From the NCBI GenBank assembly GCA_017559855.1, contig JAFYQP010000040.1, positions 1 to 54,328 on the forward strand: a stretch of 54,328 nucleotides of DNA, read 5' to 3'. Made by a program: the position numbers and the translations under genes. Within the stretch, counting starts at the first letter, position 1. The number at the start of each line of letters is the position of its first letter. Below, piece after piece: positions 3,572-48,723 of this stretch. Under the pieces are notes generated by a model, which worked only from the letters and a program-made list of their open reading frames with translations, did no database searches and was not told the DNA's origin. The DNA is from Clostridia bacterium. Lineage in GTDB: Bacteria; Bacillota; Clostridia; Oscillospirales; JAAYXM01.

Positions 3572-4930
<1,359 letters not shown>

Positions 4931-4945
4931 GTTAAAACTTTAGAT

Positions 4946-4983
4946 AAAAAATCCCGTACGGTGTAAACCATACGGGATTTTTA
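4946..4983. terminator. bidirectional intrinsic terminator between eno and the convergent ATPase gene
   Basis: Hairpin ATCCCGTA(4951-4958)/TACGGGAT(4971-4978), with an A-run upstream and a T-run downstream. Confidence 0.8.
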
Positions 4984-4984
4984 T

Positions 4985-7633
4985 TTATTTGCGGGATATC
5001 AGTTTGCCGATAAAACGAACGATTTCGCCGAGAATTATAATTGATGCACCGCAGAGAAGAATTTTGCCCCACATTACGAGGGAAAGGGGAGCGGTTCCGA
5101 AAATGCTTCCGCCAAATTGTGTTATTACAAATTGGAGGACGAAAGTTGCGGTAAATACCGCAAACATAAGTTTATTGCGGAACAAGTTTTTGAAAATACT
5201 GTCATTTTCAAGTTCACGGCTATTAAACGCATTGAATAATTGGAACACGACAAAAAGTGAGAAGATAATACTTGTTTTCTCACCGTCGGTAGTTCCACCG
5301 AGAAAGTTTGTAAAGTGTTGGAGCAGAATAACCACGGCAACGTAAATGCCGTTTACAACAATTCGTGTAAGCATCTTACTTGAAACGATTGCTTGATTTC
5401 TCGGTGTGGGTGCACGTTTCATCAGGTCGCGTCGCATAGGCTCAAGACCTAAGGTAAGGGCGGGTGGTCCGTCCATAATAAGATTAATCCACAAGAGTTG
5501 AAGTGCGGAGAATGGGGATGCAAAACCTGCAATTATGGAGCCAAGCACAACAATTACCGATGATACGTTGACGGTAAGTTGGAACTGAATGAATCGCATA
5601 AAGTTATCGAAAATACCACGCCCCCATTCGGTTGCACGGACGATGGTTGTGAATGAGTCGTCAATCAAGACAACGTCACTTGCCTCTTTCGAAACCTCGG
5701 TGCCGGTAATGCCCATTGCAATACCAATATCCGCATTTTTAAGTGCGGGAGCATCGTTAATGCCGTCGCCTGTAACCGCTACAACGTTACCGAGTTCCTT
5801 AAGGGTATTTACAACTCGCATTTTAACAACAGGAGTAGAACGTGCGATTACTGCGATGTGAGGAATCGCTTCCTTGAGTTCATCATCGTTCATTTCTTCA
5901 ATGGTGTTCGCCTCAACGGCAATGTGGTCATCATCTAAAATGCCCAACTGATTTGCGATTGCAGTTGCGGTAACTATATTGTCACCGGTAAGCATTTTAA
6001 GGGAAATTCCGGCACCTCGTGCCTTTACTACCGCGTCGTAAACGTCTGAACGGAGGGGATCGGTAATGGCGACGAATCCATCAAATACCATATGGCTCTC
6101 GATTATTTCACGCTCGCTGTCAAAATCTGGGCAGGTGGTGAATTCCTTGTGTGCAAAGCCGATTACACGATGGGCCTTGCTTTGGTAGCGGCGGATCGCA
6201 TCTTCGTAACGTGCCTGATCATCATCACTTAAGTCACAATATGTGAGTATTTTTTCCGGAGCACCTTTAGTGTATGCAACGTAGAAGTCGTCCGCTTTAA
6301 TAACGGTGGTCATCTTCTTCTTTTCGGACGAGAAGGGATAGACGTGAACTATAGATGTCTCACTTCGCATTGTGCGATAGTCAAGCCCTGCCTTGCTAAG
6401 TGCTACAAGAAGTGCACATTCGGTAGGATTTCCGATAAAGTCCTTTCGGTTATCGTAAAATTCAACGTTTGCGGTACTGTTAATTGCAAAGTTGCGAGAC
6501 AGTGCATCTTTTGTTAACTCCTCAGGCTTTTTAGCACCGAGATAGTTGAAAAACTCAACAACGGTCATGCGATTTTCTGTAAGAGTACCGGTTTTATCGG
6601 AACAAATCACGTTGATACAACCGATGGTTTCACTTGCAACTAATTTTTTAACCAAAGCATTTCGCTTTGACATTTTTATGACGTTTAGAGCAAGGGAAAC
6701 CGCAACGATTGTGGGAAGTCCCTCCGGTACACAGGCAACAATCAATACAATGCTGGTGATGAATGCTTCGCTTATATTCTCGAAGTTGAGCCCGTTTTTC
6801 ATGCTGAAAGTCACAAGTTGGAGGATAAATGCGGCAATTGCCACGAAAATTCCCAAGATTGCAATAATCTTACCCAACTTTGCAAGTTTTTCCTGAAGCG
6901 GGGTGGAGGTGGAATCAACAGATGTAAGTTCACGTGCGATTTTACCAAATTCCGTCTTGTCGCCAACCGCGGTTACTACCATCACACCGCTACCACCGGT
7001 GACAAAAGTGCCGGAATAGAGCATATTTACACGGTCTGCAACGGGAGTTTTTTCATTATTTAAAACTACCTCTGCATCTTTTTTTACCGGCACAGACTCA
7101 CCGGTAAGTGATGATTCGTCAACTCTTAGGGCGGTTGACTCAATAAGTCTGCCGTCGGCGGAGAGTTTATCTCCTGTTTCCACGTAAACAATGTCGCCTA
7201 CAACTAATTCGCTTTGAGGAATAAGTTGAATTTTGCCGTTTCTGAGGACTTTCACCTGAATGTCTTGCTTCATTCGATTAAGTGCTTCAAAGGCTTTGGC
7301 ACTTCGGCTTTCCATAATTACGGAAATCATAACCGACAAGGCGATAGCAACGAAGATGCCCACACATTCAACAACGTCAAAATGTCCACCGTTTGCTGCA
7401 CGGACGGCATTTACCACAATTGCTATAATTCCTGCGAAAATAAGAAGAAGAATCATCGGCTCCTTGCAAGACTCGACTATTCTTGCAAGAAAAGATGGTG
7501 GCTTTTCACGGGTAAATTCGTTAATGCCATGTTTTTCCGCACTCTCCTTGATTTGAGTGTCGGTTAAACCTGATGACAGATCACAACCCAAATCAGAGAG
7601 AACCTCATTTGGATTTTTAAGATAAGGTTGCAT
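4985..7633 (-). CDS. P-type (PMCA/SERCA-like, type IIA) cation-transporting ATPase, possibly a Mn2+/Ca2+ exporter
   Basis: Carries CSDKTGTLTENRM (phosphorylation site), MLTGDN and GDGINDAPAL motifs plus a C-terminal TM bundle. GGAGG followed by 8 nt favours the ATG at 7633 (MQPYLKNPNE) over the TTG at 7648. Confidence 0.9.
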   Translation of the reverse strand: MQPYLKNPNEVLSDLGCDLSSGLTDTQIKESAEKHGINEFTREKPPSFLARIVESCKEPMILLLIFAGIIAIVVNAVRAANGGHFDVVECVGIFVAIALSVMISVIMESRSAKAFEALNRMKQDIQVKVLRNGKIQLIPQSELVVGDIVYVETGDKLSADGRLIESTALRVDESSLTGESVPVKKDAEVVLNNEKTPVADRVNMLYSGTFVTGGSGVMVVTAVGDKTEFGKIARELTSVDSTSTPLQEKLAKLGKIIAILGIFVAIAAFILQLVTFSMKNGLNFENISEAFITSIVLIVACVPEGLPTIVAVSLALNVIKMSKRNALVKKLVASETIGCINVICSDKTGTLTENRMTVVEFFNYLGAKKPEELTKDALSRNFAINSTANVEFYDNRKDFIGNPTECALLVALSKAGLDYRTMRSETSIVHVYPFSSEKKKMTTVIKADDFYVAYTKGAPEKILTYCDLSDDDQARYEDAIRRYQSKAHRVIGFAHKEFTTCPDFDSEREIIESHMVFDGFVAITDPLRSDVYDAVVKARGAGISLKMLTGDNIVTATAIANQLGILDDDHIAVEANTIEEMNDDELKEAIPHIAVIARSTPVVKMRVVNTLKELGNVVAVTGDGINDAPALKNADIGIAMGITGTEVSKEASDVVLIDDSFTTIVRATEWGRGIFDNFMRFIQFQLTVNVSSVIVVLGSIIAGFASPFSALQLLWINLIMDGPPALTLGLEPMRRDLMKRAPTPRNQAIVSSKMLTRIVVNGIYVAVVILLQHFTNFLGGTTDGEKTSIIFSLFVVFQLFNAFNSRELENDSIFKNLFRNKLMFAVFTATFVLQFVITQFGGSIFGTAPLSLVMWGKILLCGASIIILGEIVRFIGKLISRK

Positions 7634-38055: not shown

Positions 38056-38142
38056 GCCGCTGTGGTGGAATAGGCAGACACAAGGGACTTAAAATCCCTC
38101 GGTAGCAATACCGTGCCGGTTCAAGTCCGGCCAGCGGCACCA
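38056..38142 (+). tRNA. tRNA-Leu (anticodon UAA)
   Basis: Acceptor GCCGCTG/CAGCGGC followed by A and an encoded CCA. Anticodon arm AGGGA-CTTAAAA-TCCCT. Long variable arm. T-arm GCCGGTTCAAGTCCGGC. Confidence 0.92.
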
Positions 38143-38147
38143 TATAT

Positions 38148-38224
<77 letters not shown>

Positions 38225-40482: not shown

Positions 40483-40743
40483 TTATTTTTCTGTATTTTC
40501 TTTTATTATCCTTCTTATTGTTTTCTCTGAATAGTTATACTTTATGGCGAGAGATTTGATATTTGTACCGTCATATTCTGCTATAATATTTTTTCGTGTG
40601 CATACGGGATTGAAGAACCTTACGGGAAAACAAATCTGCTGTCCTTTGAATAACTTATACATATCCATAGCGATATCCATACCCAAGTTGTCCGCTATTT
40701 CCTTGTATACCGCATTTAAAAGTTCTGATCCGTTTTTTGCCAT
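40483..40743 (-). CDS. Mor-like (phage Mu Mor / CD3324-type) HTH regulator
   Basis: GAGGTG RBS with ATG at 40743 or 40749. The sequence ...LYKLFKGQQICFPVRFF...EYDGTNIKSLAIKYNYSEKTIRRIIKE fits the Mor transcription activator family. The longer ORF up to 40962 has no RBS. Confidence 0.65.
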   Translation of the reverse strand: MAKNGSELLNAVYKEIADNLGMDIAMDMYKLFKGQQICFPVRFFNPVCTRKNIIAEYDGTNIKSLAIKYNYSEKTIRRIIKENTEK

Positions 40744-40865
40744 ACGCATCACCTCATTGTCAAATTCTAGCAGATTGTGCCGCTTAAGTATAATCTTAAT
40801 GTCCTTGCGTTTGTCCTGTGGGAAAATATCTTTTACAACAATATAGTAAAAAAAGGGAGGGACAA

Positions 40866-42206
40866 ATGTATGTCCTTTTGAAAAAGTTTTCGGATGTGGA
40901 AATGTTAAAAATTTTGTGGTATAATGTAGAAAACACAGAGGAGGTGAACACGGTGGCGGCATATAGTGAACTTATAAAGAATTTCGAGAAAATACGAAAT
41001 TATATGCGTGAGTTTTACATCTACGGCTTTAAAAGCAGGGATGAATACGACAGAAAAAGTGCGAGGTCATATGATGACGAAAAAAGACGAATGGAGAGTT
41101 GGCTTGGCGACTATATGAATTTCGTCCGCACACCTGACGGCAAAAACGTGTTCATTTCCATTGATAGCCGTGTTTCAAAACACAACCCGTTCTACCGTGC
41201 ACTTAAGGCAAAGAGTTTTACCGACAGGGACATAACTCTGCACTTTATTTTATTTGACATTTTAAGTTCCTCTGATATTTCGCTTACCTTGCCGGAAATA
41301 ATTGCCGGAACGGAGAAATACTTGTCACGATTTGAATGTCAGATGGAATTTGACGAGTCTACGGTAAGGAAAAAACTTAAAGAGTACGCATCACTAGGCA
41401 TAATTATTTTGGAAAAAGACGGGAAAAAAGCACGGTATCGCAGAGCAGAAGAGGTTGAGTTGCCGGACATTACCGATTTATTAAATTTCTATTCCGAGGT
41501 TCTACCTTGTGGTGTAATCGGCTCTTTCCTTCTCGATAAGCAGGAGGAGAGTGAAAGCAATTTCACCTTCAAACACCACTATATGACCTCTGCGATAGAT
41601 AGTAACGTCTTATGTGCACTTTTTCTTGCAATGCGGGAAAAGAGGATTATCACGGCATACAATTTAAGTCGCCATGCGGAAGAGGCGACTAAGGTGCGGC
41701 TCATTCCTTTGCGTATTCTCATTAGCGTCCAGAACGGACGCCAACATCTTCTTGCATATCAACCTGAGTACAATACGATTAAAACATTCCGTGTCGACTA
41801 CTTATCCGAGGTAACTCTTGAAGAGGTATCACCGAGATTTGATGAACTGAGACAAGAGCTCCACGATATGGAGCCGATGATGTGGGGCGTTACCGCAAAG
41901 AAAAAACTTCACGGGGAACATAATATTCAAAACGTGGAATTTACCATTAAGATAGGTGACGATGAGGAATATATCATACGTCGTTTAGAGCGGGAAAAGA
42001 GAGTGGGGCAGGTTATCAAAGTAGATGACAATACCTACCGTTTCGTTGCCAAAGTGTATGATACAAGCGAAATGATACCATGGATACGCACCTTTATCTG
42101 CAGAATTACCAACCTTGAGTTCTCCAACAAAAATTTTGAAAATCAATTTAAAAGTGACGTTGAAGAAATGTATCGTATATACGGAATTGAGGAGGTGGAG
42201 GTATGA
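40866..42206 (+). CDS. WYL-domain transcriptional regulator (long paralog)
   Basis: N-terminal wHTH-type region (YSELIKNFEKIRNYMREFYIYGFKSRDEY). WYL domain (RLIPLRILISVQNGRQHLLAYQPEYNTIKTFRVDYLSEV). Start is the ATG at 40866 (GGAGG followed by 5 nt) or the GTG at 40953 (GAGGAGG followed by 9 nt). Confidence 0.8.
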   Translation: MYVLLKKFSDVEMLKILWYNVENTEEVNTVAAYSELIKNFEKIRNYMREFYIYGFKSRDEYDRKSARSYDDEKRRMESWLGDYMNFVRTPDGKNVFISIDSRVSKHNPFYRALKAKSFTDRDITLHFILFDILSSSDISLTLPEIIAGTEKYLSRFECQMEFDESTVRKKLKEYASLGIIILEKDGKKARYRRAEEVELPDITDLLNFYSEVLPCGVIGSFLLDKQEESESNFTFKHHYMTSAIDSNVLCALFLAMREKRIITAYNLSRHAEEATKVRLIPLRILISVQNGRQHLLAYQPEYNTIKTFRVDYLSEVTLEEVSPRFDELRQELHDMEPMMWGVTAKKKLHGEHNIQNVEFTIKIGDDEEYIIRRLEREKRVGQVIKVDDNTYRFVAKVYDTSEMIPWIRTFICRITNLEFSNKNFENQFKSDVEEMYRIYGIEEVEV

Positions 42207-43108
42207 TTTTTAACGAAATATACTCCGCCTATTACAACGCGGTTGCAAAGATAATAGCAAAGGTGCTGGAGGGCAAGTGTGATGACCGTGAACTTGGGAA
42301 AATCGTCGCACGGTATGCCTTTGGGGAGAGCGTGATAACTCTTTTGCCATCTCTTAAAAGTGAAAAGTGGAAACTTATCACAAAAGATATGAAAACACCC
42401 ATAAAGAAAAAACCCACTATGCCCCTTACCGATATTCAGAAAATGTGGCTCAAGGCGGTGCTGGAGGATCCTCGCATAAAACTTTTTGATGTTCAAATTC
42501 CCGCCCTTTCCGATGTGGAGCCGCTTTTTACTCCGGAGGATTACAGAGTGTACGATAAATATTCAGACGGCGATCCGGTTGAGGATGAAGAATATATAAA
42601 ACATTTCCGTACAATTCTGTGTGCGATTAAGAACGGGCGTAACGTGAAAATCGAAATGACAAGTCGAAAAGGCAAGGAGATATACGTAAGATGTAAGCCG
42701 ATTTGTATTGAATACTCGGAAAAAGATGATAAATTCCGTGTAATTACAACCGGCTGCCCCTTCGTAAAAACCATAAACGTCGCACGTATCACAAAGTGTA
42801 ATTTATATAGCGGTGATGACGTTAGAGAAGTCGAGACGGTCGATGAAAGTTATGAAACGTTAACTTTAAAGGTGCGAGATGAACGCAACGCACTTGAGAG
42901 ATGTATGCTTCATTTTGCCCATTTCGAGAAGCGGGCGGAGCGTGTGGGAGAGGATTATCTTGTACATATTAAATTTAATAAAGATGATGAACCGGAAATG
43001 GTAATTCGTGTTCTCTCCTTTGGACCGATGGTGGAAGCGGTTGCGCCGCAAGACTTTCGCGAAAAAATAATAGATAAATTAAAAAAACAAAAAATCTGCG
43101 GACTTTGA
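42203..43108 (+). CDS. WYL-domain protein (short paralog)
   Basis: ATGA overlap with the upstream WYL gene. WYL core (VKIEMTSRKGKEIYVRCKPICIEYSEKDDKFRVI...INVARITKC). C-terminal extension LSFGPMVEAVAPQDFREKI. Confidence 0.8.
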   Translation: MIFNEIYSAYYNAVAKIIAKVLEGKCDDRELGKIVARYAFGESVITLLPSLKSEKWKLITKDMKTPIKKKPTMPLTDIQKMWLKAVLEDPRIKLFDVQIPALSDVEPLFTPEDYRVYDKYSDGDPVEDEEYIKHFRTILCAIKNGRNVKIEMTSRKGKEIYVRCKPICIEYSEKDDKFRVITTGCPFVKTINVARITKCNLYSGDDVREVETVDESYETLTLKVRDERNALERCMLHFAHFEKRAERVGEDYLVHIKFNKDDEPEMVIRVLSFGPMVEAVAPQDFREKIIDKLKKQKICGL

Positions 43109-43127
43109 TAGTTCGCAGATTTTTTTC
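43095..43127 (+). terminator. intrinsic terminator after the WYL pair
   Basis: TCTGCGGA(43095-43102)/TTCGCAGA(43112-43119) followed by T8. It overlaps the stop codon. Confidence 0.8.
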
Positions 43128-43165
43128 CGTGAAAAAGGAAAAATGAGGTAGTAAAATAGCATCAT

Positions 43166-43790
43166 AAGGCACAGACAGCAAAAACATTTTGCACAAGTAT
43201 TCAGAACTACTTAAAAATGTGCCTTGTAAAAGGTGCGTACAGCAAACCAATCATACGTTTGAGGGGCGTACACGATGACGGGAGGTGTCTCCCGCATTGC
43301 ACCTTGACAATTTAATAAAAGCATTTTTTAAAGGTGCCCGCAGCAAACCACAAATGAAATTATTATGGAGAAATGGCACCTTGTTAAGCCCCCGTCCGAC
43401 ACCTGGACGGAAATTTAAGGCACATACAGCAAAAATACATAGCATCCGACTTCTAATCGGTTGAGCTGTTGGGGAGCCTTTCCCCTCCTATTGTTAATGT
43501 GCCTTGCACAGACTCTTGCCATAGGCTTTAAGGGCTTAAGGCCTCGGGGCAAGAGTTTCTGATGTATACAAACACCGTTTTTCTCATAGATAACGGTGAG
43601 TAAAGACGTCAACCGCAAAAACGATTCTCAACTGCTTCGGTCCTTATGGGACAATCGGAGCAAGACCAAACTGCGGGGGAAATTTTCTCGTGTTTGGGAA
43701 ATATGGCGTCTTGTAAAATAAAAAGGCACGAACAGCAACATTAAGTTTTGATTGGAAGAAACAGGGCACTGAAAATGCCCACGTGCCTTG
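43166..43790 (+). ncRNA. candidate structured RNA(s): five tandem Y-RNA-like stem-loop modules plus extra hairpins
   Basis: The closing helices are AAGGCACA/TGTGCCTT (43166-73/43218-25), AAGGTGC/GCACCTT (43230-36/43299-305), AAGGTGCC/GGCACCTT (43331-38/43375-82), AAGGCACAT/ATGTGCCTT (43417-25/43497-505) and AAGGCACG/CGTGCCTT (43723-30/43782-89). They covary. Each 5' arm is followed by a conserved CAGCAA. No ORF in the region has an RBS. Confidence 0.6.
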
Positions 43791-43835
43791 AATTTTGTTT
43801 ATTAATAATTTTTTATATGTAAAGGAGTGAGTTTC

Positions 43836-45302
43836 ATGTTACAATATTTGAAACAGGAAGCAAACAAAACATTAACTGAAAACGGCGCACAAACCAACAT
43901 CAGCACATTGTCTGACTGTCTTGATTTGTTTGCCACCATTGGTGCTCTTCGACACGCAAACGATGATGAAATCCGTACCCGCTTTATCCGTGCATACGCA
44001 GAGGATAAGGATATTGCCATGAAACTTTTGTTTTATGCACGTGATGTCCGAGGCGGTTTGGGTGAACGTCACGTGTTCCGCACAATCCTTAAGTGGCTTG
44101 CGGAAAACCATCCCGAATCCGTGCGTAAAAACCTTCCTTTTATTGCAGAGTATGGTCGCTTTGACGATCTTATGGTATTGTTCGGTACTCCCGTTGAGCG
44201 TGAGATGCTTGAACTTATCGACTCTCAACTTGAGAAAGACTTTGACGCAATGGCAGAGGGCAAGGAGATATCTCTTCTTGCAAAATGGCTTCCCTCCGTG
44301 AACGCCACCAACCGTGCAACCGTAGCGAGAGCGAAGAAGGTTCGCGATTTCCTCGGCATGAACGACCGAGAGTACCGCAAACTTTTATCCCGTCTTCGTG
44401 CACATATCCGCATAATCGAGAATAATCTTCGTGAGCGTGACTACACCTTCGATTACGAAAAACAGCCCTCCAAGGCGATGTTTAAGTATCGCAAGGCATT
44501 TGCACGTAATGACGGCGATCGTTATGCCGAGTTTTTAGAGCGTGTAAATCACGGTGAGGCAAAACTCAACACAGGTACTCTTATGCCCTATGAGATCATC
44601 ACCCCGTTTTTCAAACGGTATGTAGATGAGAAGGAGGAAAATGCCATCAATACCACTTGGTATGCCCAAGAGGATTTTGGCACAAACGAGAATGCTCTTG
44701 TAGTCGTGGACGGCTCCGGTTCCATGCACGCAGGTAATGAACCGCTTCCCATAATCGTTGCATTGTCCCTTGGCATTTACGTTGCTGAGCGAAACACAGG
44801 TTTATTCAAAAACCACTTCATTACTTTCTCCAGAACACCGCAACTTGTTGAAATCAAGGGCGATACAATTCTTGAAAAGTTACGATATTGCATTACTTTC
44901 AATGAGGTTGCCAATACTAATGTTGAGAAGGTTTTTAAATTGATTCTTGACACCGCAGTAAAGAATAATCTTCCGCAGGAAGAACTTCCTGCAAGAATAT
45001 ACATCATTTCCGATATGGAATTTGATTGTTGTACGGAAGATGCAGATACTACCAATTTCGAGTGTGCCAAGAAATTGTTTGAAGAAGCGGGTTATCGCCT
45101 TCCCGAAGTTGTTTTCTGGAACGTGAATAGCCGCAATCGTCAGCAACCGGTTACCCGTAATGAGCAGGGTGTTTACCTTGTGTCCGGTTGCACACCAAGA
45201 TTGTTTGCAATGATTGCAAACAACCGTGTTGATGAAATAACACCGTATAAGTTTATGCTTGACACATTGGGTGCTGAGCGATATAAAAATATAGTAGCAT
45301 AG
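43836..45302 (+). CDS. DUF2828-family protein (Ro60/TROVE-like N-region + vWA/MIDAS C-domain)
   Basis: AAAGGAG followed by 8 nt precedes the ATG at 43836. Has LTENGAQT...LDLFATIGALR and ARDVRGGLGERHVFR (as I recall for DUF2828). MIDAS-like VVVDGSGSM...ISDMEF. The family call is from memory, not from a search. Confidence 0.65.
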   Translation: MLQYLKQEANKTLTENGAQTNISTLSDCLDLFATIGALRHANDDEIRTRFIRAYAEDKDIAMKLLFYARDVRGGLGERHVFRTILKWLAENHPESVRKNLPFIAEYGRFDDLMVLFGTPVEREMLELIDSQLEKDFDAMAEGKEISLLAKWLPSVNATNRATVARAKKVRDFLGMNDREYRKLLSRLRAHIRIIENNLRERDYTFDYEKQPSKAMFKYRKAFARNDGDRYAEFLERVNHGEAKLNTGTLMPYEIITPFFKRYVDEKEENAINTTWYAQEDFGTNENALVVVDGSGSMHAGNEPLPIIVALSLGIYVAERNTGLFKNHFITFSRTPQLVEIKGDTILEKLRYCITFNEVANTNVEKVFKLILDTAVKNNLPQEELPARIYIISDMEFDCCTEDADTTNFECAKKLFEEAGYRLPEVVFWNVNSRNRQQPVTRNEQGVYLVSGCTPRLFAMIANNRVDEITPYKFMLDTLGAERYKNIVA

Positions 45303-45343
45303 AGAGGGGTTCTACCTCTTTGTGTATGAAAGGAATGATATCT

Positions 45344-46552
45344 ATGATGGAAATTAAGGGTAAGTACAATACCGCCATTTGTTATACTCAAGAGGTTGAA
45401 CCAAACGCATACACCCAGATAGAGTCTGTCTGTAACGAAGAGGCTTTTTCAAAGTCCAAGATACGCATTATGCCGGACGTTCACGCAGGTAAGGGCTGCA
45501 CCATAGGTACCACGATGACCATTGTTGATAAGGTGGTGCCCAATATGGTTGGTGTGGACATCGGTTGCGGTATGTATACGGTTAACTTGGGCAAGGTGGA
45601 TATTGACCTTGAAGCCTTTGATGCCGCAGCACATACCATACCCTGCGGCCGAGATGTGTGGCCGGGCCGTGTTGCACGATTTGATCTGACCGCCCTCCGA
45701 TGTTACCGTGAATTAAAGGATACCCGACGTTTAGTGCGTAGTTTGGGTACCTTAGGTGGCGGTAACCACTTTATTGAAATTGACGTGGACGAAGAGGGTA
45801 ATAAGTATCTTGTAATACACTCCGGCAGCCGAAATTTAGGTACTCAGGTTGCAAATTATTATCAGCAACTAGCCGTGGAGTTGAATCGAGGCAAGGAGGA
45901 ATATTTCCGCAAATGTGATGAAGTAATCCGTACATACAAGGAGCAGGGCAAGCGATCAGAGATTGAGAAAACGCTCAAGCAGTTAAAGCGAGAGTGGAAG
46001 GCAAAAGAGCCGACCATGCCATATGAATTATGCTATTTATACGGCGAATTTATGGAGGATTATCTGCACGATATCAATATTTGTCAGCAATTTGCCAAGT
46101 TAAACCGTGAGACAATGGCGAACATACTGCTCACAAAGACAGGCTTTACCGCACAGGACACTTTCCAAACAATTCATAACTATATTGACGTGGATGAGAT
46201 GATTTTGCGTAAGGGCTCCGTATCCGCAAAAGCGGGTGAGAAGTTGCTTATCCCGATTAATATGCGTGACGGTAGTTTGGTTTGTATCGGTAAGGGCAAT
46301 CCGGAGTGGAATTTCTCCGCACCGCACGGTGCAGGCCGACTGATGTCACGTTCCACCGCACAAGAGCAACTCACAATGGAGGAGTATAAAAAGCAGATGG
46401 AGGGTATCTACACCACCTGCGTAAATACCGCAACATTGGACGAGTCACCTATGGCGTATAAGAATATGGAAGATATCGTTGCCAATATTCAGCCTACCGC
46501 GGAAATTATCGCCCATATCAAGCCTATTTACAATTTCAAAGCGTCAGAGTAG
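45344..46552 (+). CDS. rtcB: RtcB family RNA 3'-phosphate/2',3'-cyclic-phosphate ligase
   Basis: IRIMPDVHAGKGCTIGT, GVDIGCGM, GGGNHFIEI and PHGAGR motifs (metal and GMP-His sites). ATG at 45344 or 45347. Confidence 0.88.
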   Translation: MMEIKGKYNTAICYTQEVEPNAYTQIESVCNEEAFSKSKIRIMPDVHAGKGCTIGTTMTIVDKVVPNMVGVDIGCGMYTVNLGKVDIDLEAFDAAAHTIPCGRDVWPGRVARFDLTALRCYRELKDTRRLVRSLGTLGGGNHFIEIDVDEEGNKYLVIHSGSRNLGTQVANYYQQLAVELNRGKEEYFRKCDEVIRTYKEQGKRSEIEKTLKQLKREWKAKEPTMPYELCYLYGEFMEDYLHDINICQQFAKLNRETMANILLTKTGFTAQDTFQTIHNYIDVDEMILRKGSVSAKAGEKLLIPINMRDGSLVCIGKGNPEWNFSAPHGAGRLMSRSTAQEQLTMEEYKKQMEGIYTTCVNTATLDESPMAYKNMEDIVANIQPTAEIIAHIKPIYNFKASE

Positions 46553-47085: not shown

Positions 47086-47094
47086 ATGTATAAT

Positions 47095-48441
47095 TTAGAA
47101 TACGCCTTCTGCGAGCATTGCCTCTGCAACTTTCTTAAAGCCTGCGATGTTAGCACCTGCGATAAGGTCGTAGCCGAGACCAACTTCTTCAGCTGCCTTT
47201 GCGGAGTTATCGTGGATATTCTTCATAATGAGGTGGAGTTTTTCGTCAACCTCTGCCGGCTCCCAACTGTAACGCATGGAGTTCTGAGCCATTTCAAGAG
47301 CACTTGTAGCAACGCCGCCTGCGTTAACCGCCTTGGACGGAGCAACGATCTTAACGTTCTTCTTAAGATACTCGATAGCCTCGTTGGTAGTGGGCATGTT
47401 AGCAACTTCGATGTAGTATTCAACACCGTTTGCAACGATCTGTTCTGCTTCCTTCATGCCGATTTCGTTCTGGTATGCACAGGGCATGCAGATATCAACC
47501 TTCTCGCCCCAAACCTTAGCACCGGGAACGAACTTGCAGCCAAACTTGTCAGCGTAGTCCTGAGCACGGTCACGACCGGAAGAACGCATCTCAAGGAGGA
47601 ATGCGATTTTCTCTTCGGTAACGACACCGTCCGGATCATAGCAGTAGCCATCAGGACCGGAAATGGTAACAACCTTACCGCCGAGTTCTGCAACCTTCTC
47701 GCAAACACCCCAAGCAACGTTACCGAAACCGGAAACTGCAACGGTCTTACCCTTGATGGTATCGCCGTAGTGCTTAAGAACTTCTTCAAGGTAGTAAACA
47801 GCACCGTAACCGGTAGCCTCAGGACGGAAGTAAGAACCGCCGTAGGAGAGACCTTTACCGGTAATTACGCCGTTCTGCCAGGTAGCCTTGATTCTCTTGT
47901 ACTGACCGTAGAGGAAACCAACCTCACGTGCACCAACGCCAACGTCACCTGCGGGAACGTCAACGTCCGGGCCGATATGACGGTAAAGTTCGGTCATAAA
48001 TGCCTGACAGAAACGCATGATTTCATTGTCACTCTTACCACGGGGGTCAAAGTCAGAACCACCCTTACCGCCGCCGATGGGAAGACCGGTAAGTGCATTT
48101 TTAAATGTCTGCTCGAAAGCAAGGAACTTCATTGTGTCGAGGGTAACCGAGGGATGGAAACGAAGACCACCCTTGTACGGGCCGATAGCACCGTTGAACT
48201 GAACACGGAAACCACGGTTAGTATGGAAGTTGCCTTCATCATCCTGCCAGGTAACACGGAAGGAGATCTGGCGATCAGGTTCGCAAAGTCTCTCAAGAAG
48301 ACCTGCTTTTTCATATTCGGGATGCTGAGCAACGATAGGCTCAATACTTGCGAAAACCTCTTCTACAGTTTGAATGAAGAGATCTTCACCTTTGTTACGT
48401 GCCTTAACTTCGTCAAGGACTCTTTGCATATAAGGTGTCAT
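47095..48441 (-). CDS. gdhA: NADP-specific glutamate dehydrogenase
   Basis: 448 aa with RVTWQDDEGNFHTNRGFRVQFNGAIGPYKGGLRFHPSV and the GGGKGGSDFDP catalytic Lys region. Confidence 0.95.
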   Translation of the reverse strand: MTPYMQRVLDEVKARNKGEDLFIQTVEEVFASIEPIVAQHPEYEKAGLLERLCEPDRQISFRVTWQDDEGNFHTNRGFRVQFNGAIGPYKGGLRFHPSVTLDTMKFLAFEQTFKNALTGLPIGGGKGGSDFDPRGKSDNEIMRFCQAFMTELYRHIGPDVDVPAGDVGVGAREVGFLYGQYKRIKATWQNGVITGKGLSYGGSYFRPEATGYGAVYYLEEVLKHYGDTIKGKTVAVSGFGNVAWGVCEKVAELGGKVVTISGPDGYCYDPDGVVTEEKIAFLLEMRSSGRDRAQDYADKFGCKFVPGAKVWGEKVDICMPCAYQNEIGMKEAEQIVANGVEYYIEVANMPTTNEAIEYLKKNVKIVAPSKAVNAGGVATSALEMAQNSMRYSWEPAEVDEKLHLIMKNIHDNSAKAAEEVGLGYDLIAGANIAGFKKVAEAMLAEGVF

Positions 48442-48723
48442 TTTTCATTTCCTCCTATATATAAAGAAATAATTGGGTTTAGTGCTATGTCTTCATTATA
48501 GCACTAAAAAAAATAAAGTCAAACAAAAAGATAAAATAAGTAGAAAAAGCGAAAGTTTGCATAAAATTCAAAAATATTTTATAGTAAATATATGATGCCA
48601 TGATATAATTTAAGCACATAAAAGGAAAATTCACAATTAATTTACACTTTGTTAACCCGTTTTTTTCTTTTTTATGGTTTAATATAATGGTGAAATGCAA
48701 AAATTTGACAAGGAGTATCAAAT

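What the first reader, a model, noticed from the sequence alone, without database searches (positions are those of the whole stretch)
43128..43826. Five tandem, covarying stem-loop modules fill the 0.7-kb non-coding gap upstream of a Ro60-like gene and rtcB: candidate Y-RNA-like RNA family
What the sequence shows: five units share one architecture. Each has a closing helix AAGGYRC(N)/(N)GYRCCTT followed by G. Each has an invariant CAGCAA 2-4 nt after the 5' arm, and a variable interior of 35-70 nt. The units are U1 43166-43226, U2 43230-43306, U3 43331-43383, U4 43417-43506 and U5 43723-43790.

The helices covary between units: CAC/GTG in U1, U4 and U5 against TGC/GCA in U2 and U3. The 8th pair is A:T, G.T, C:G, A:T and G:C in U1-U5 respectively. 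This argues for RNA pairing within each unit rather than a DNA operator or pairing between neighbouring units.

The interiors and the U4-U5 spacer contain further clean hairpins: CGGGAG-GTGT-CTCCCG at 43279-43294, CCGTCC/GGACGG at 43392-43410, ACTCTTGCC/GGCAAGAGT at 43512-43556, CACCGTT/AACGGTG at 43573-43598, and AAGACG/CGTCTT at 43603-43712.

The WYL operon ends at a terminator (43095-43127). A plausible promoter, GTGAAA-17 nt-TAAAAT (43129-43157), would start transcription right at U1. There is no canonical terminator before the DUF2828 start, so the RNA could be a processed leader of the DUF2828-rtcB transcript.

Established knowledge: bacterial Y RNAs (YrlA/YrlB) are modular. Their closing stem binds the Ro60 orthologue Rsr. 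They can occur in multiple tandem copies, and they are encoded next to rsr and rtcBA (for example the Salmonella rsr-yrlBA-rtcBA operon).

Inference: these modules are Y-RNA analogues that pair with the DUF2828 protein. I do not recognise the closing-helix sequence as a known Ro-binding helix, and the partner is not a canonical TROVE protein, so this may be an undescribed RNA class.
Basis: partly seen in the sequence, partly recalled or inferred. Interest (0 to 1): 0.9.

Follow-up and report, generated by a model that had tools for sequence, protein, structure and literature searches.

The report
Y-RNA-like array beside Ro-like gene
The 0.7-kb gap holds six copies of a conserved, strand-specific RNA module that travels with a Ro60-like protein gene (DUF2828) in gut bacteria and many cultured phages, and it looks like an undescribed cousin of the bacterial Y RNAs linked to tRNA repair.

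Summary
The gap holds six modules, not five. Each has a 7-9 bp closing helix, the box (A)CAGCAA exactly 3 nt after the helix, a variable interior and an unpaired 3' G.

The same module lies upstream of the DUF2828 homologue, on the gene's strand, in 79 of 80 bacterial loci (about 385 copies). It is also present in most phage DUF2828 loci, including 7 of 8 cultured phages checked (hosts: Listeria, Bacillus, Staphylococcus, Enterococcus, Campylobacter, Mycobacterium, Escherichia). The helix covaries at every pair, and neighbouring modules avoid identical arms.

In relatives many interiors are tRNA-like, with D, anticodon and T arms in natural order. Window modules U4 and U5 keep anticodon-arm mimics.

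The predicted DUF2828 fold matches only Ro60/TROVE structures at the top of the PDB search. Pfam finds no TROVE domain.

A conserved promoter/operator sits 53-55 nt upstream of the first module. In bacteria the cassette is WYL-WYL-array-DUF2828-RtcB. Phages keep RNA and DUF2828 inside tRNA clusters, mostly without WYL or RtcB.

Rfam's YrlA and Y_RNA models do not match, and no paper describing this RNA was found.

Verdict: a new variant of the Ro60/Y-RNA kind. Binding and expression are untested.

The parts
40818..42206 (+). WYL-domain protein gene, first of a tandem pair. The start codon is uncertain: the homologue in L281 is 417 aa.
   Evidence: Pfam WYL E=1.7e-7, weak WCX. Homologues adjoin the array in 58 of 80 loci.
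42203..43108 (+). Second WYL-family gene of the pair (WCX C-terminal domain).
   Evidence: Pfam WCX E=6.4e-5, just under the cut-off. Homologues in 61 of 80 loci, always next to the first WYL gene and sometimes divergent from the array.
43089..43125 (+). Hairpin plus T-run after the WYL2 stop codon. Its 3' half belongs to the conserved promoter/operator element.
   Evidence: Inverted repeat I2, 16-nt arms, 94% complementary. The element is conserved also where the WYL genes are divergent.
43113..43157 (+). Conserved promoter/operator: TCGCAGA-T7-CC, -35 GTGAAA (43129-43134), -10 TAAAAT (43152-43157). The predicted start is 1-2 nt before the first module.
   Evidence: Promoter scan. TCGCAR-N-T5-9 lies within 200 nt upstream of the first module in 57 of 81 loci, and 51-58 nt upstream (mostly 54-55) in 49 of them. 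Nearly identical in L281. Present in 1 of 80 phage loci.
43166..43226 (+).
   Evidence: Covariance model R1 42.6 bits.
43230..43306 (+). Module 2 (U2): AAGGUGCG/UUGCACCUU helix. The interior includes the CGGGAG-GUGU-CUCCCG hairpin.
   Evidence: R1 21.1 bits; the hit is shortened because its flank overlaps module 1.
43331..43383 (+). Module 3 (U3): AAGGUGCC/GGCACCUU helix, box GCAGCAA. It is the shortest module, 53 nt.
   Evidence: R1 38.0 bits.
43392..43410 (+). Inter-module hairpin CCGUCC-GACACCU-GGACGG, unassigned.
   Evidence: Fold -11.3 kcal/mol, z = -3.7. Conserved in L281.
43417..43506 (+). Module 4 (U4): 9-bp helix. The interior has an anticodon-arm mimic, CCGA-CUUCUAA-UCGG (UCU), plus a GGGGA/UCCCC hairpin.
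   Evidence: R1 43.7 bits. In L281 the loop reads CUUUUAA.
43507..43602 (+). Spacer with two stable hairpins (about 43509-43558 and 43573-43598), unassigned.
   Evidence: Fold -38.2 kcal/mol, z = -6.2. Conserved only in the close relative L281.
43603..43713 (+).
   Evidence: Relaxed scan. R1 28.3 bits. The fold keeps the closing helix, z = -4.1. In L281 the helix and box are nearly unchanged (one substitution at helix position 9) and the interior is unalignable.
43723..43790 (+). The interior holds GGGCA-CUGAAAA-UGCCC, identical in form to a tRNA-Phe(GAA) anticodon arm. It ends 45 nt before the start codon.
   Evidence: R1 49.3 bits. In L281 the arms are UGC/GCA, a double compensatory change.
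43836..45302 (+). DUF2828+DUF7788 protein, 488 aa: predicted Ro60-like alpha-helical N-terminal region plus vWA domain with a DGSGS MIDAS motif. RBS AAGGAG at 43822-43827.
   Evidence: Pfam. AF2 model pLDDT 74. Foldseek top 13 PDB hits are all Ro60/TROVE, E 5e-9 to 2e-5. D292-G-S-G-S296 is invariant.
45320..46552 (+). RtcB RNA ligase gene.
   Evidence: Pfam RtcB E=3.6e-59. NCBIfam RtcB-family models, below their cut-offs. A homologue is found within the fetched locus in 58 of 80 loci, usually next to the DUF2828 gene.

Best explanation
The gap encodes a polycistronic array of six small structured RNAs of one family. They are the RNA partners of the DUF2828 protein, a divergent Ro60-like protein, in the way Y RNAs partner Ro60.

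Each module has two parts.
1. A protein-binding platform: a 7-9 bp helix formed by the module's own 5' and 3' ends, a single-stranded (A)CAGCAA box in the internal loop just inside the 5' arm, an A-rich opposite strand, and an unpaired G after the 3' arm.
2. A variable cargo domain. Across the family this is often a tRNA body or an anticodon-arm mimic whose acceptor end is replaced by the platform.

Transcription starts 1-2 nt before module 1 from a conserved promoter/operator, presumably controlled by the adjacent tandem WYL regulators. It runs on into DUF2828-rtcB. The modules are then cut apart; in relatives and phages they are interleaved with real tRNAs, so tRNA-processing enzymes would release them.

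The resulting RNPs act in the response to tRNA/RNA damage alongside the RtcB ligase. Most likely they present tRNA-like or anticodon-arm surfaces to tRNA-directed nucleases or repair enzymes, as decoy or scaffold. Because the last module sits in the DUF2828 leader, they may also give the protein feedback control of its own mRNA.

Shown: family conservation, strand specificity, covariation, tRNA mimicry, Ro60-like predicted fold, gene linkage, conserved promoter.
Inferred: transcription, processing, protein binding, biological role.
For: Family and linkage
- 5 exact matches in the window against 0.02 expected. Six modules, + strand only, by covariance model.
- About 385 modules in 79 of 80 bacterial DUF2828 loci, 384 of 387 upstream of the gene on its strand.
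- In the IMG/VR phage DUF2828 loci the regex scan finds modules in 64 of all 80. The model, not trained on phage sequence, was run on 40 of them and gives 88 hits at E<=0.01 in 36, all on the gene's strand.
- In cultured phages of seven host genera, 23 of 26 + strand ACAGCAA boxes lie in complete modules and none on the - strand.
- In phage loci ACAGCAA occurs 451 times on the + strand against 34 on the - strand.

RNA-level selection
- Of 557 CAGCAA boxes on the + strand, 297 have the exact reverse complement of the 7-mer at -10..-4 within 35-200 nt downstream. The - strand gives 2 of 278, and control offsets of 11 nt or more give 3-19 of 557.
- Pair 8, which was not used for selection, forms in 79% of modules.
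- All 8 pairs show double changes; covariation score 0.608 against 0.271 when shuffled (0 of 500) and at most 0.20 when slid.
- Adjacent modules share identical arms 11 times against 26 +/- 3.9 expected (0 of 2000 permutations).
- In the close relative L281 the module-6 arms change CAC/GUG to UGC/GCA, and the module-5 interior is replaced while its helix and box are essentially kept (one substitution). Indels of 1, 2, 4, 7 and 24 nt exclude coding.

tRNA mimicry
- The Rfam tRNA model and ARAGORN hit inside modules of relatives.
- RNAalifold on 27 modules gives closing helix + D + anticodon + T arms, with 14 of 21 pairs compensated.
- Anticodon-arm-like hairpins occur in 109 of 385 modules (7 in shuffles) and T-arm-like hairpins in 72 of 385 (0.8 in shuffles).

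Partner
- The 13 best PDB matches of the DUF2828 model are all Ro60/TROVE structures. The MIDAS motif DGSGS is invariant.
- Phage homologues are annotated 'Ro-like RNA binding protein'.
- Phages keep RNA + DUF2828 while RtcB is found in 2 of 80 loci and WYL in 1 of 80, so the RNA tracks DUF2828.

Transcription
- A conserved element lies within 200 nt upstream of module 1 in 57 of 81 loci, and 51-58 nt upstream (mostly 54-55) in 49 of them. It includes loci with divergent WYL genes.

Parallel with known Y RNAs: a 5'-3' stem flanking an internal loop with a conserved 5'-strand motif, plus a tRNA-like domain (PMC4201824, PMC12135203).
Against: - No transcript, processing or binding data exist for any member.
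- The AF2 model has moderate confidence (pLDDT 74, pTM 0.62, built from 12 sequences). TM-scores to Ro60 are only 0.37-0.47.
- There is no sequence-level link to TROVE.
- The box ACAGCAA is not the known Ro-binding motif (GGUCCGA, or GNCGAA/CGAA).
- Most window modules (1, 2, 3 and 5 in order) have no recognisable tRNA-like feature. Only about a quarter of family members pass the strict anticodon-arm test.
- The last module's fixed position 25-55 nt before the start codon fits a cis-acting leader equally well. A short-helix variant overlaps the start codon in a Vibrio phage.
- The modules counted were chosen for having paired arms. That count therefore overstates pairing; (pair 8) and 77 are the independent tests.
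Confidence: 0.72

Rival explanations
1. The modules are purely cis-acting leader elements of the DUF2828-rtcB mRNA. They would be translational or transcriptional operators bound by DUF2828 or another factor, or an attenuator, and not stable trans-acting RNAs.
For: The array lies between a conserved promoter and the DUF2828 start with no canonical terminator. In most loci the last module ends 25-55 nt before the start codon. In Vibrio phage TCU-VP04 a short-helix variant overlaps the start codon.
Against: There are up to 10 modules per locus with diverse cargo domains, including near-complete tRNA bodies. In phages, modules lie downstream of DUF2828 or kilobases away among tRNA genes. Real tRNAs are interleaved, which implies processing into separate RNAs. 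Autoregulation through the last module is compatible with the main explanation and does not replace it.
Confidence: 0.12
2. The RNAs are substrates or cofactors of RtcB, or of host tRNA enzymes, rather than partners of DUF2828. For example, they could be RNAs cut at both ends of the closing helix and circularised or re-ligated by RtcB. DUF2828 would be linked only through a shared pathway.
For: RtcB is in the same cassette in most bacterial loci and in Listeria phage LP-064. The closing helix brings the 5' and 3' ends together. The interiors are tRNA-like.
Against: RtcB is detected in only 2 of 80 phage DUF2828 loci, yet the modules persist there. The invariant platform co-varies in presence with DUF2828 across Firmicutes, Actinobacteria, Proteobacteria and Campylobacter phages. 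Host RtcB acting in trans cannot be excluded.
Confidence: 0.1
3. The units are decaying tRNA gene copies or pseudogenes with no function of their own.
For: Many relatives' modules score as tRNA with Rfam and ARAGORN. The arrays adjoin real tRNAs. Window modules look eroded: module 6 lacks a 24-nt hairpin that L281 has.
Against: The parts that are not tRNA (closing helix, ACAGCAA box, 3' G) are the most conserved, and they covary across bacteria and distant phages. Acceptor stems are systematically replaced. Neighbouring modules avoid identical arms.
Confidence: 0.03
4. The inverted repeats are DNA-level elements: operators for the WYL regulators, or REP/MITE-like repeats.
For: The repeats lie next to WYL transcription-factor genes. 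They are inverted repeats.
Against: They are strictly strand-specific relative to DUF2828: 88 of 88 model hits and 0 modules on the - strand. Arm sequences differ from copy to copy yet stay complementary, and arm spacing varies by tens to well over 100 nt. WYL was found in only 1 of the 80 phage DUF2828 loci, yet most of those loci carry modules. A separate conserved element upstream is the better operator candidate.
Confidence: 0.02

Closest known systems
YrlA / YrlB of the Salmonella rsr-yrlBA-rtcBA operon and YrlA-like RNAs (Rfam RF02553; Chen et al. 2014, PMC4201824)
   Same: Both are non-coding RNAs encoded beside a Ro60-type protein gene on its strand, within an RtcB RNA-repair operon, and often in several copies. 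Both are modular: a stem formed by the 5' and 3' ends, a conserved single-stranded motif near the 5' end, and a tRNA-like domain. One member of the present family, Mycobacterium phage Crossroads module 2, even carries a YrlA-type T-AS-D core (Rfam YrlA 21.6 bits, E 0.031).
   Different: The conserved motif is ACAGCAA, not GNCGAAN0-1G. The closing helix is well formed on both strands, 7-9 bp. Where present, the tRNA-like domain is in natural D-anticodon-T order, with an exposed anticodon arm and the platform at the acceptor position; YrlA is permuted with the platform at the anticodon position. The arrays lie upstream of the protein gene and reach 10 copies. The partner is DUF2828, with no Pfam TROVE hit. 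The regulator is a WYL pair, not RtcR. The Rfam YrlA model does not match the window and reaches no gathering threshold in 12 relatives.
Deinococcus radiodurans Yrn1 (Y RNA)
   Same: Both strands of the terminal helix are retained. The tRNA-like part is in natural order, with a stem-loop in the anticodon-arm position (PMC4201824).
   Different: Yrn1 binds the canonical Ro60 orthologue Rsr through a metazoan-like helix and tethers PNPase. It has no ACAGCAA box, no tandem arrays and no DUF2828.
Thermus phage phiLo Ro60 with Yrl1/Yrl2 (PMC12135203; PDB 9KOP, 9L5Y)
   Same: It is a phage-encoded Ro60-type protein with Y-like RNAs encoded just upstream. [quoted passage not shown] It is the best structural match of the DUF2828 model (E 4.8e-9).
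   Different: The motif is CGAA and the protein is a recognisable Ro60 homologue. That paper never uses the term 'tRNA-like' for Yrl1/Yrl2.
Metazoan Y RNAs (Rfam Y_RNA RF00019)
   Same: They are small RNAs whose paired ends form the Ro60-binding stem, with a variable internal module.
   Different: They have a conserved bulged helix GGUCCGA/UUGACU, no tRNA mimicry and RNA polymerase III transcription. There is no Rfam match here.
PafBC/DriD-type tandem WYL transcription activators (from the assessor's own knowledge)
   Same: Two adjacent WYL-family genes sit next to a stress-response operon that has a conserved promoter-proximal element at a fixed distance.
   Different: The ligand and binding site are unknown here, and the operon encodes an RNP plus an RNA ligase. 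This comparison concerns the regulators, not the RNA.

Membership tests
Bacterial Y RNA (YrlA/Yrn type) | Encoded close to a Ro60 orthologue and on the same strand | tested here: met
   384 of 387 modules lie upstream of the DUF2828 gene on its strand. 88 of 88 phage hits are on the gene's strand. The protein is Ro60-like by predicted fold only.
Bacterial Y RNA (YrlA/Yrn type) | 5' and 3' ends pair into a stem that flanks an internal loop carrying a conserved 5'-strand motif | tested here: met
   The closing helix covaries at all 8 pairs. The box is invariant, 3 nt inside the 5' arm, and the opposite strand is A-rich.
Bacterial Y RNA (YrlA/Yrn type) | The motif is the Ro-binding sequence GNCGAAN0-1G / CGAA (or GGUCCGA in animals) | tested here: not met
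   The box is (A)CAGCAA in all retained modules. The known motifs are taken from PMC4201824 and PMC12135203.
Bacterial Y RNA (YrlA/Yrn type) | Match to the Rfam YrlA (RF02553) or Y_RNA covariance model at the gathering score | tested here: not met
   No hit in 43050-43900 even at E<=10. No hit at gathering in the window or in 12 related loci. The only hit is a 21.6-bit partial match (gathering score 69) in a mycobacteriophage member.
Bacterial Y RNA (YrlA/Yrn type) | Contains a tRNA-like domain | tested here: inconclusive
   Relatives: clear D/anticodon/T cloverleaf bodies in natural order. Window: only anticodon-arm mimics in modules 4 and 6; the other four have none.
Bacterial Y RNA (YrlA/Yrn type) | Physically bound by the Ro60-type protein | not testable with these tools
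   Needs RIP, EMSA or a structure.
Ro60 / TROVE protein | Pfam TROVE domain or sequence similarity to solved Ro60 structures | tested here: not met
   Pfam at E<=10 gives DUF2828, DUF7788 and weak VWA_2 only. A profile search against PDB sequences finds no Ro60.
Ro60 / TROVE protein | HEAT-repeat ring followed by a vWA domain (fold) | tested here: met
   The Foldseek top 13 PDB hits are all Ro60/TROVE over about 510-590 aligned columns, E 4.8e-9 to 1.6e-5; the next hits are vWA domains. The model has moderate confidence, pLDDT 74.
Ro60 / TROVE protein | MIDAS motif DxSxS in the vWA domain | tested here: met
   D292-G-S-G-S296 is invariant in 12 homologues.
tRNA | Cloverleaf with a 7-bp acceptor stem, detectable by tRNA finders | tested here: not met
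   ARAGORN finds only the tRNAs at 38056-38224 in the window. Rfam tRNA gives no hit in the gap. In relatives the acceptor stem is reduced to about 3 bp, judged by reading the module sequences, and replaced by the platform.
Rtc RNA-repair operon (RtcR-RtcA-RtcB) | RtcB ligase gene in the operon | tested here: met
   Pfam RtcB E=3.6e-59.
Rtc RNA-repair operon (RtcR-RtcA-RtcB) | RtcR (CARF, sigma-54 activator) regulator and RtcA cyclase | tested here: not met
   The neighbouring genes are two WYL-family genes, DUF2828, RtcB and a weak YbjN-like ORF. No RtcR or RtcA is among the nine ORFs scanned.

The most novel reading that the evidence does not exclude
The arrays are programmable sets of tRNA anticodon-arm decoys or sentinels displayed on a Ro-like ring. 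Each module would offer the anticodon arm of a particular tRNA (Phe-GAA, Lys-UUU, Arg-UCU, Tyr-GUA and others) with its acceptor end locked in the DUF2828 platform, so that it cannot enter translation.

Anticodon nucleases of competing phages, toxins or defence systems would cut the decoys. The closing helix and the ring would hold the halves for re-ligation by RtcB. In bacteria the fragments or damage signal would induce the operon through the WYL pair. Phages would carry the same RNPs in their tRNA clusters as counter-defence.

The module repertoire, and changes such as UCU to UUU between close relatives, would then record an arms race over tRNA targets.
Probability: 0.25. Interest if true: 0.92.

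Novelty: new variant of a known kind. Interest (0 to 1): 0.85.

Why it matters
What Ro60 and Y RNAs do in bacterial RNA-repair operons is still open. [quoted passage not shown]

This finding adds a second, apparently much more widespread branch of that system.
- It gives the DUF2828/DUF7788 family a likely function as an RNA-binding Ro-like ring. The family has at least 8000 homologues in the protein search and is present in 710 cultured-phage records.
- It identifies that family's RNA partner.
- It shows the partner keeps an exposed anticodon arm, unlike YrlA.

The family occurs in tractable phages infecting Listeria, Escherichia, Bacillus, Staphylococcus, Campylobacter and Mycobacterium (cluster L). 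Binding, structure and phenotype can therefore be tested directly with standard phage-host genetics.

It would also explain hundreds of unannotated gaps in phage tRNA clusters, and 'pseudo-tRNA' calls there. It would supply a new Rfam family.

Tried and rejected
Searches that found nothing
- Rfam at gathering and at E<=10 over the gap gives only terminator-like noise at 43050-43128 and microRNA-like noise on the spacer hairpin.
- blastn of the gap against cultured phages: no match.
- Profile of DUF2828 against PDB sequences: no Ro60. NCBIfam: nothing for DUF2828 or the WYL proteins.
- blastn-short of the spacer and module interiors against all fetched loci gives only chance-level 15-19 nt matches. 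Interiors are therefore not conserved by sequence outside the close relative.

Papers
- Ten searches found no description of an RNA partner of DUF2828.
- Burroughs & Aravind 2016 (NAR 44:8525) and Sim et al. 2020 (Annu Rev Microbiol) are not held. The supplement of Chen et al. 2014 is not held either.
- I therefore cannot exclude that those texts mention DUF2828-type loci. From memory, the first discusses ROT/TROVE-RtcB-WYL neighbourhoods but not this RNA.

Ideas considered and dropped
- Small self-cleaving ribozyme: no Rfam ribozyme hit, and too few invariant bases.
- Kink-turn: there is no conserved G.A/A.G pair on the 3' strand.
- T-box or riboswitch: the modules mimic tRNA rather than bind it, and their copy number varies.
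- CRISPR-like or REP repeats: rejected on strand specificity and compensatory arms.
- Small ORFs: only mechanical minus-strand ORFs are present, and frameshifting indels separate the window from L281.
- Box pairing with the 3' strand: that strand is A-rich, not UUGCUG.

Caution on 'anticodon' counts
The triplet counts are inflated by UUCG-type loops (UUUCGGG) and by T-loop-like UUCAUAG loops. Only the CU-NNN-AA loops should be read as anticodon-loop mimics.

Partial failure
Vibrio phage TCU-VP04 has four + strand ACAGCAA boxes but no module under the strict 7-bp rule. By eye there is one short-helix variant.
Full report
**1. The observation**

The pattern AAGGYRCNNNCAGCAA occurs five times in the 54-kb window. 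All five are in this gap on the + strand, against 0.02 expected from shuffles. Each unit folds with its closing helix in the minimum-free-energy structure, z = -2.0 to -3.6.

A scan that did not fix the arm sequence found a sixth module at 43603-43713: AAGACGUC-AAC-CGCAA...GGCGUCUUG. Pair 4 is A:U instead of G:C.

A covariance model, R1, was built mainly from 100 modules of other genomes. It finds exactly these six sites in the whole window, all on the + strand, at 21-49 bits. The reverse strand of the same sites scores about 4 bits.

**2. It is a family tied to the DUF2828 gene**

The gene after the gap (43836-45302) is DUF2828+DUF7788, followed by RtcB. Two WYL-family genes precede the gap.

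I fetched 80 genome loci encoding DUF2828 homologues of 59-72% identity. They come from Oscillospiraceae, Acutalibacteraceae, Christensenellales, Lachnospiraceae, Synergistaceae and others.
- The relaxed scan finds about 385 modules in 79 of 80 loci. The exception has no upstream DNA.
- There are 1-10 modules per locus.
- 384 of 387 modules lie upstream of the gene on its strand.
- In most loci the last module ends 25-55 nt before the start codon.

The consensus is A-AARRYRC-NN-ACAGCAA...(A-rich)...GYRYYUU-G-U. Module length is 46-188 nt, median 83, and the median spacer is 12 nt.

**3. Selection acts on RNA structure**

One test uses only the box. Of 557 CAGCAA occurrences on the + strand of the loci, 297 have the exact reverse complement of the 7-mer at -10..-4 within 35-200 nt downstream. 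The - strand gives 2 of 278. Control offsets of 11 nt or more give 3-19 of 557.

The arms come in many versions: AAGGCAC 94, AAGAUGC 52, AAGACGC 50, AAGGCGC 45, AAAGCAC 33, AAGGUGC 28, AAGACAC 28 and others. Pair 8, which was not used to pick modules, forms in 79%.

On an alignment of 106 modules all 8 pairs show changes on both sides. The covariation score is 0.608, against 0.271 when shuffled (0 of 500) and at most 0.20 when the partner is slid. The percentage paired in that count is inflated, because the modules were chosen for paired arms.

Adjacent modules carry identical arms 11 times out of 304. Permuting the order within arrays gives 26 +/- 3.9, and 0 of 2000 permutations reach 11. This is what one expects if neighbours sit on one transcript and must not mispair.

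The close relative L281 (protein 87% identical) has the same six modules in the same order.
- Module 6 has switched arms from CAC/GUG to UGC/GCA.
- Module 5 keeps its helix and box almost unchanged (one substitution at helix position 9) around an unalignable interior.
- Indels of 1, 2, 4, 7 and 24 nt rule out coding.

**4. What is inside the modules**

Listing the modules by length showed that many of about 95 nt are tRNA bodies. The Rfam tRNA model and ARAGORN hit inside them: L011 4889-4960 within module 4873-4968 at 53 bits, L022 at 53 bits, L020 at 50 bits.

RNAalifold on 27 such modules gives closing helix, D arm, anticodon arm and T arm in natural tRNA order. Fourteen of 21 pairs are compensated. 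By my reading of the sequences, the acceptor stem is reduced to about 3 bp. It is replaced by the internal loop with ACAGCAA and the closing helix.

Across all modules, strict anticodon-arm-like hairpins occur in 109 of 385 (7 in shuffled interiors). T-arm-like hairpins occur in 72 of 385 (0.8 in shuffles).

Real tRNA genes sit inside the arrays. For example, tRNA-Phe ends 2 nt before a module in L006.

The window's own modules are reduced versions.
- Module 6 keeps GGGCA-CUGAAAA-UGCCC, a tRNA-Phe(GAA)-type anticodon arm.
- Module 4 keeps CCGA-CUUCUAA-UCGG. In L281 its loop reads CUUUUAA.
- The other four show no tRNA feature.

**5. The protein partner**

Sequence methods see only DUF2828, DUF7788 and a weak VWA_2 match. 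A profile finds no solved relative.

An AlphaFold model (pLDDT 74, pTM 0.62) was searched against the PDB. Its 13 best matches are all Ro60/TROVE structures aligned over their full length: phage phiLo Ro60, Deinococcus Rsr, Xenopus and human Ro60. E-values run from 4.8e-9 to 1.6e-5. Isolated vWA domains follow.

The MIDAS motif DGSGS is invariant. Annotators of mycobacteriophages already call homologues 'Ro-like RNA binding protein'.

**6. Cassette and promoter**

WYL-WYL-[array]-DUF2828-RtcB is the common order. The WYL genes are found in 58 and 61 of the 80 loci, and RtcB in 58 of 80. In 11 loci the WYL pair is divergent and the array stays on the DUF2828 strand. In five loci RtcB precedes DUF2828, with modules before both.

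Upstream of the first module lies a conserved element: TCGCAR-N-T5-9-CCGTGAT, about 17-19 nt, then TAnAAT or TATGAT.
- The element lies within 200 nt upstream of the first module in 57 of 81 loci.
- In 49 of these its start is 51-58 nt upstream of the first module, mostly 54-55 nt; in the window it is 53 nt.
- It is present where the WYL genes are divergent.
- It is present in only 1 of 80 phage loci.

It puts the transcription start 1-2 nt before module 1. It also recasts the 'terminator' as, at least in part, the regulated promoter's upstream element. No canonical terminator precedes the DUF2828 start.

**7. Phages**

DUF2828 homologues of 40-44% identity are common in large IMG/VR contigs.
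- Modules are found by regex in 64 of 80 such loci.
- Model R1, which never saw phage sequence, gives 88 hits at E<=0.01 in 36 of 40 loci. All are on the gene's strand, mostly just upstream or just downstream of the gene.
- In these loci ACAGCAA is 13 times commoner on the gene's strand, 451 against 34.
- 73 of 80 loci have tRNA genes within 4 kb.
- RtcB is found in 2 of 80 and WYL in 1 of 80.

So the RNA tracks DUF2828, not RtcB or WYL.

Among cultured phages 710 records encode a homologue. I fetched eight loci and applied a generic test: any 7-bp arms, a 2-nt spacer, ACAGCAA, and a 3' G. Modules per + strand box were as follows.

| Phage | Modules / boxes |
|---|---|
| Listeria LP-064 | 3 of 3 |
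| Mycobacterium Crossroads | 3 of 4 |
| Escherichia wV8 (Felixounavirus) | 3 of 4 |
| Bacillus Thrax1 | 5 of 5 |
| Staphylococcus S-CoN_Ph1 | 3 of 4 |
| Enterococcus VRE9_3 | 4 of 4 |
| Campylobacter F361 | 2 of 2 |
| Vibrio TCU-VP04 | 0 of 4 |

No module was found on the - strand. Arms differ by lineage (AGGAAUC, UGGACGC, AGACCAA, AUGGUAC), while the box and the 3' G do not.

In wV8 the modules lie between tRNA genes. In Thrax1 three of them lie in the 458-nt unannotated gap before the gene.

Crossroads module 2 encloses a permuted T-AS-D core. That core gives a sub-threshold match to Rfam YrlA: 21.6 bits, E 0.031, model positions 30-81 only. This links the family to YrlA through the cargo, not the platform.

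**8. Mechanism**

Shown:
- a conserved, strand-specific, covarying RNA module with an invariant single-stranded box;
- frequent tRNA mimicry;
- obligate linkage to a protein with a predicted Ro60-like fold;
- a conserved promoter that starts at module 1;
- interleaving with tRNA genes.

Inferred:
- The array is transcribed with DUF2828-rtcB and cut into units, probably by tRNA-processing enzymes where tRNAs flank the modules.
- The closing helix, box and 3' G form the binding platform of DUF2828. The parallel is the 5'-3' stem plus CGAA-type loop motif of known Y RNAs (PMC4201824, PMC12135203).
- The cargo presents tRNA-like surfaces, notably an exposed anticodon arm with a blocked acceptor end, to tRNA-directed nucleases or repair enzymes.
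- The WYL pair induces the operon on a damage signal, by analogy with RtcR sensing tRNA halves (PMC7790460).

The authors of that paper themselves raise the idea that YrlA's tRNA-like domain could be a competitive inhibitor of an anticodon nuclease. Here the anticodon arm is actually present. Feedback on DUF2828 translation through the proximal module is plausible and does not conflict with this account.

**9. Comparison and novelty**

The system works like a Ro60/Y-RNA RNP in an RtcB operon. It fails three membership tests for YrlA/Y RNA.
- The motif is ACAGCAA, not GNCGAA/CGAA.
- There is no Rfam match.
- Where there is tRNA mimicry it is in natural order, not permuted.

The protein also fails the Pfam TROVE test while passing the fold test. 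I therefore file it as a new variant of a known kind.

Ten literature searches found no description of it. Two key non-open papers and one supplement could not be read, so some prior mention cannot be excluded.

**10. Caveats**

- There are no expression or binding data.
- The structure model has moderate confidence.
- Module picking by complementarity makes partly circular; (pair 8), 64, 73, 77 and 99 are independent of it.
- The six window modules were in the training set of R1.
- The function of the non-tRNA-like interiors and of the hairpins at 43392-43410 and 43507-43602 is unknown.

Noticed in passing
window 43113-43157; L001-L080, about 55 nt upstream of the first module: There is a conserved promoter/operator element: TCGCAR-N-T5-9-CCGTGAT, then a -10 box. 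It lies within 200 nt upstream of the first module in 57 of 81 loci, and at 51-58 nt (mostly 54-55) in 49 of them, also where the WYL genes are divergent. It is the likely binding site of the WYL pair, and it is absent from phage loci.
   Followed up: partly
L008 1938, L012 1747, L028 1544, L057 3045, L064 2300: The same TCGCAR-T-run element also occurs just after the DUF2828 stop codon in some loci. This suggests a second regulated promoter for whatever follows there.
   Followed up: no
L006 4771-4846, L011 4796-4871, L014 509-584, L052 4789-4864, L020 4494-4566, L025 4269-4449, L079 1928-2001: Apparently complete tRNA genes (Phe-GAA most often) sit inside the bacterial arrays. They often end 1-2 nt before the next module, which sometimes carries the same anticodon loop.
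   Followed up: partly
L284 5521-5652 (Mycobacterium phage Crossroads): One module with the ACAGCAA platform encloses a permuted T-AS-D tRNA-like core. It gives a sub-threshold match to Rfam YrlA (21.6 bits). The platform and the cargo therefore seem to be exchangeable parts.
   Followed up: partly
L290 about 4930-4990 (Vibrio phage TCU-VP04-AIR2): A short-helix variant (ACGACAU-UU-ACAGCAA...AUGUCAG) has its 3' arm over the DUF2828 start codon at 4971. It could be a translational operator. The other three boxes in this locus are not in recognisable modules, and two lie inside the coding sequence.
   Followed up: no
window 43417-43506 vs L281: The anticodon-like loop of module 4 reads CUUCUAA (UCU) in the window and CUUUUAA (UUU) in the 87%-identical relative. 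The 'anticodon' has changed while the stem is unchanged.
   Followed up: no
window 43507-43602 and 43392-43410: Very stable hairpins lie between modules (z = -6.2 and -3.7). They lack the platform and are conserved only in the close relative. Their role is unknown.
   Followed up: partly
window 40483-40962 (-): A Mor-family transcription activator gene is divergent from the WYL pair. A Mor gene is in the same place in L281 but in none of the 80 more distant loci.
   Followed up: partly
window 38056-38142 and 38148-38224 (+): Two ordinary tRNA genes, Leu-UAA and Met-CAU, lie 5 kb upstream of the array. They are not part of it.
   Followed up: yes
L077 64-424: Three tandem units of about 100 nt have arms GCAAAAU/AUUUUGC and a CAGCGA box. 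They lie 4.5 kb upstream of the DUF2828 gene. They may be a divergent module type or an unrelated repeat.
   Followed up: no
L283 (Listeria phage LP-064) 3382-8054: In this Pecentumvirus (Herelleviridae) Listeria phage, the three modules and DUF2828 lie between a tRNA cluster and an RtcB-like 'tRNA splicing ligase'. A phosphohydrolase gene lies in between and a 'tRNA amidotransferase' gene nearby. Together they look like a compact phage tRNA-maintenance region.
   Followed up: no
fold search against viral structures: DUF2828/DUF7788-type proteins with the same predicted fold occur in giant viruses of eukaryotes: Pithovirus, Marseillevirus, Mimiviridae and Cafeteria roenbergensis virus. Papers also mention the domain in plants. 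Whether those have RNA partners was not examined.
   Followed up: no
window 47086-48501 (+) / 47095-48441 (-): Two long overlapping ORFs lie on opposite strands. In L281 the gene at the same position is on the minus strand and is a Glu/Leu/Phe/Val dehydrogenase. The + strand ORF, which has no Pfam hit, is therefore probably spurious.
   Followed up: partly
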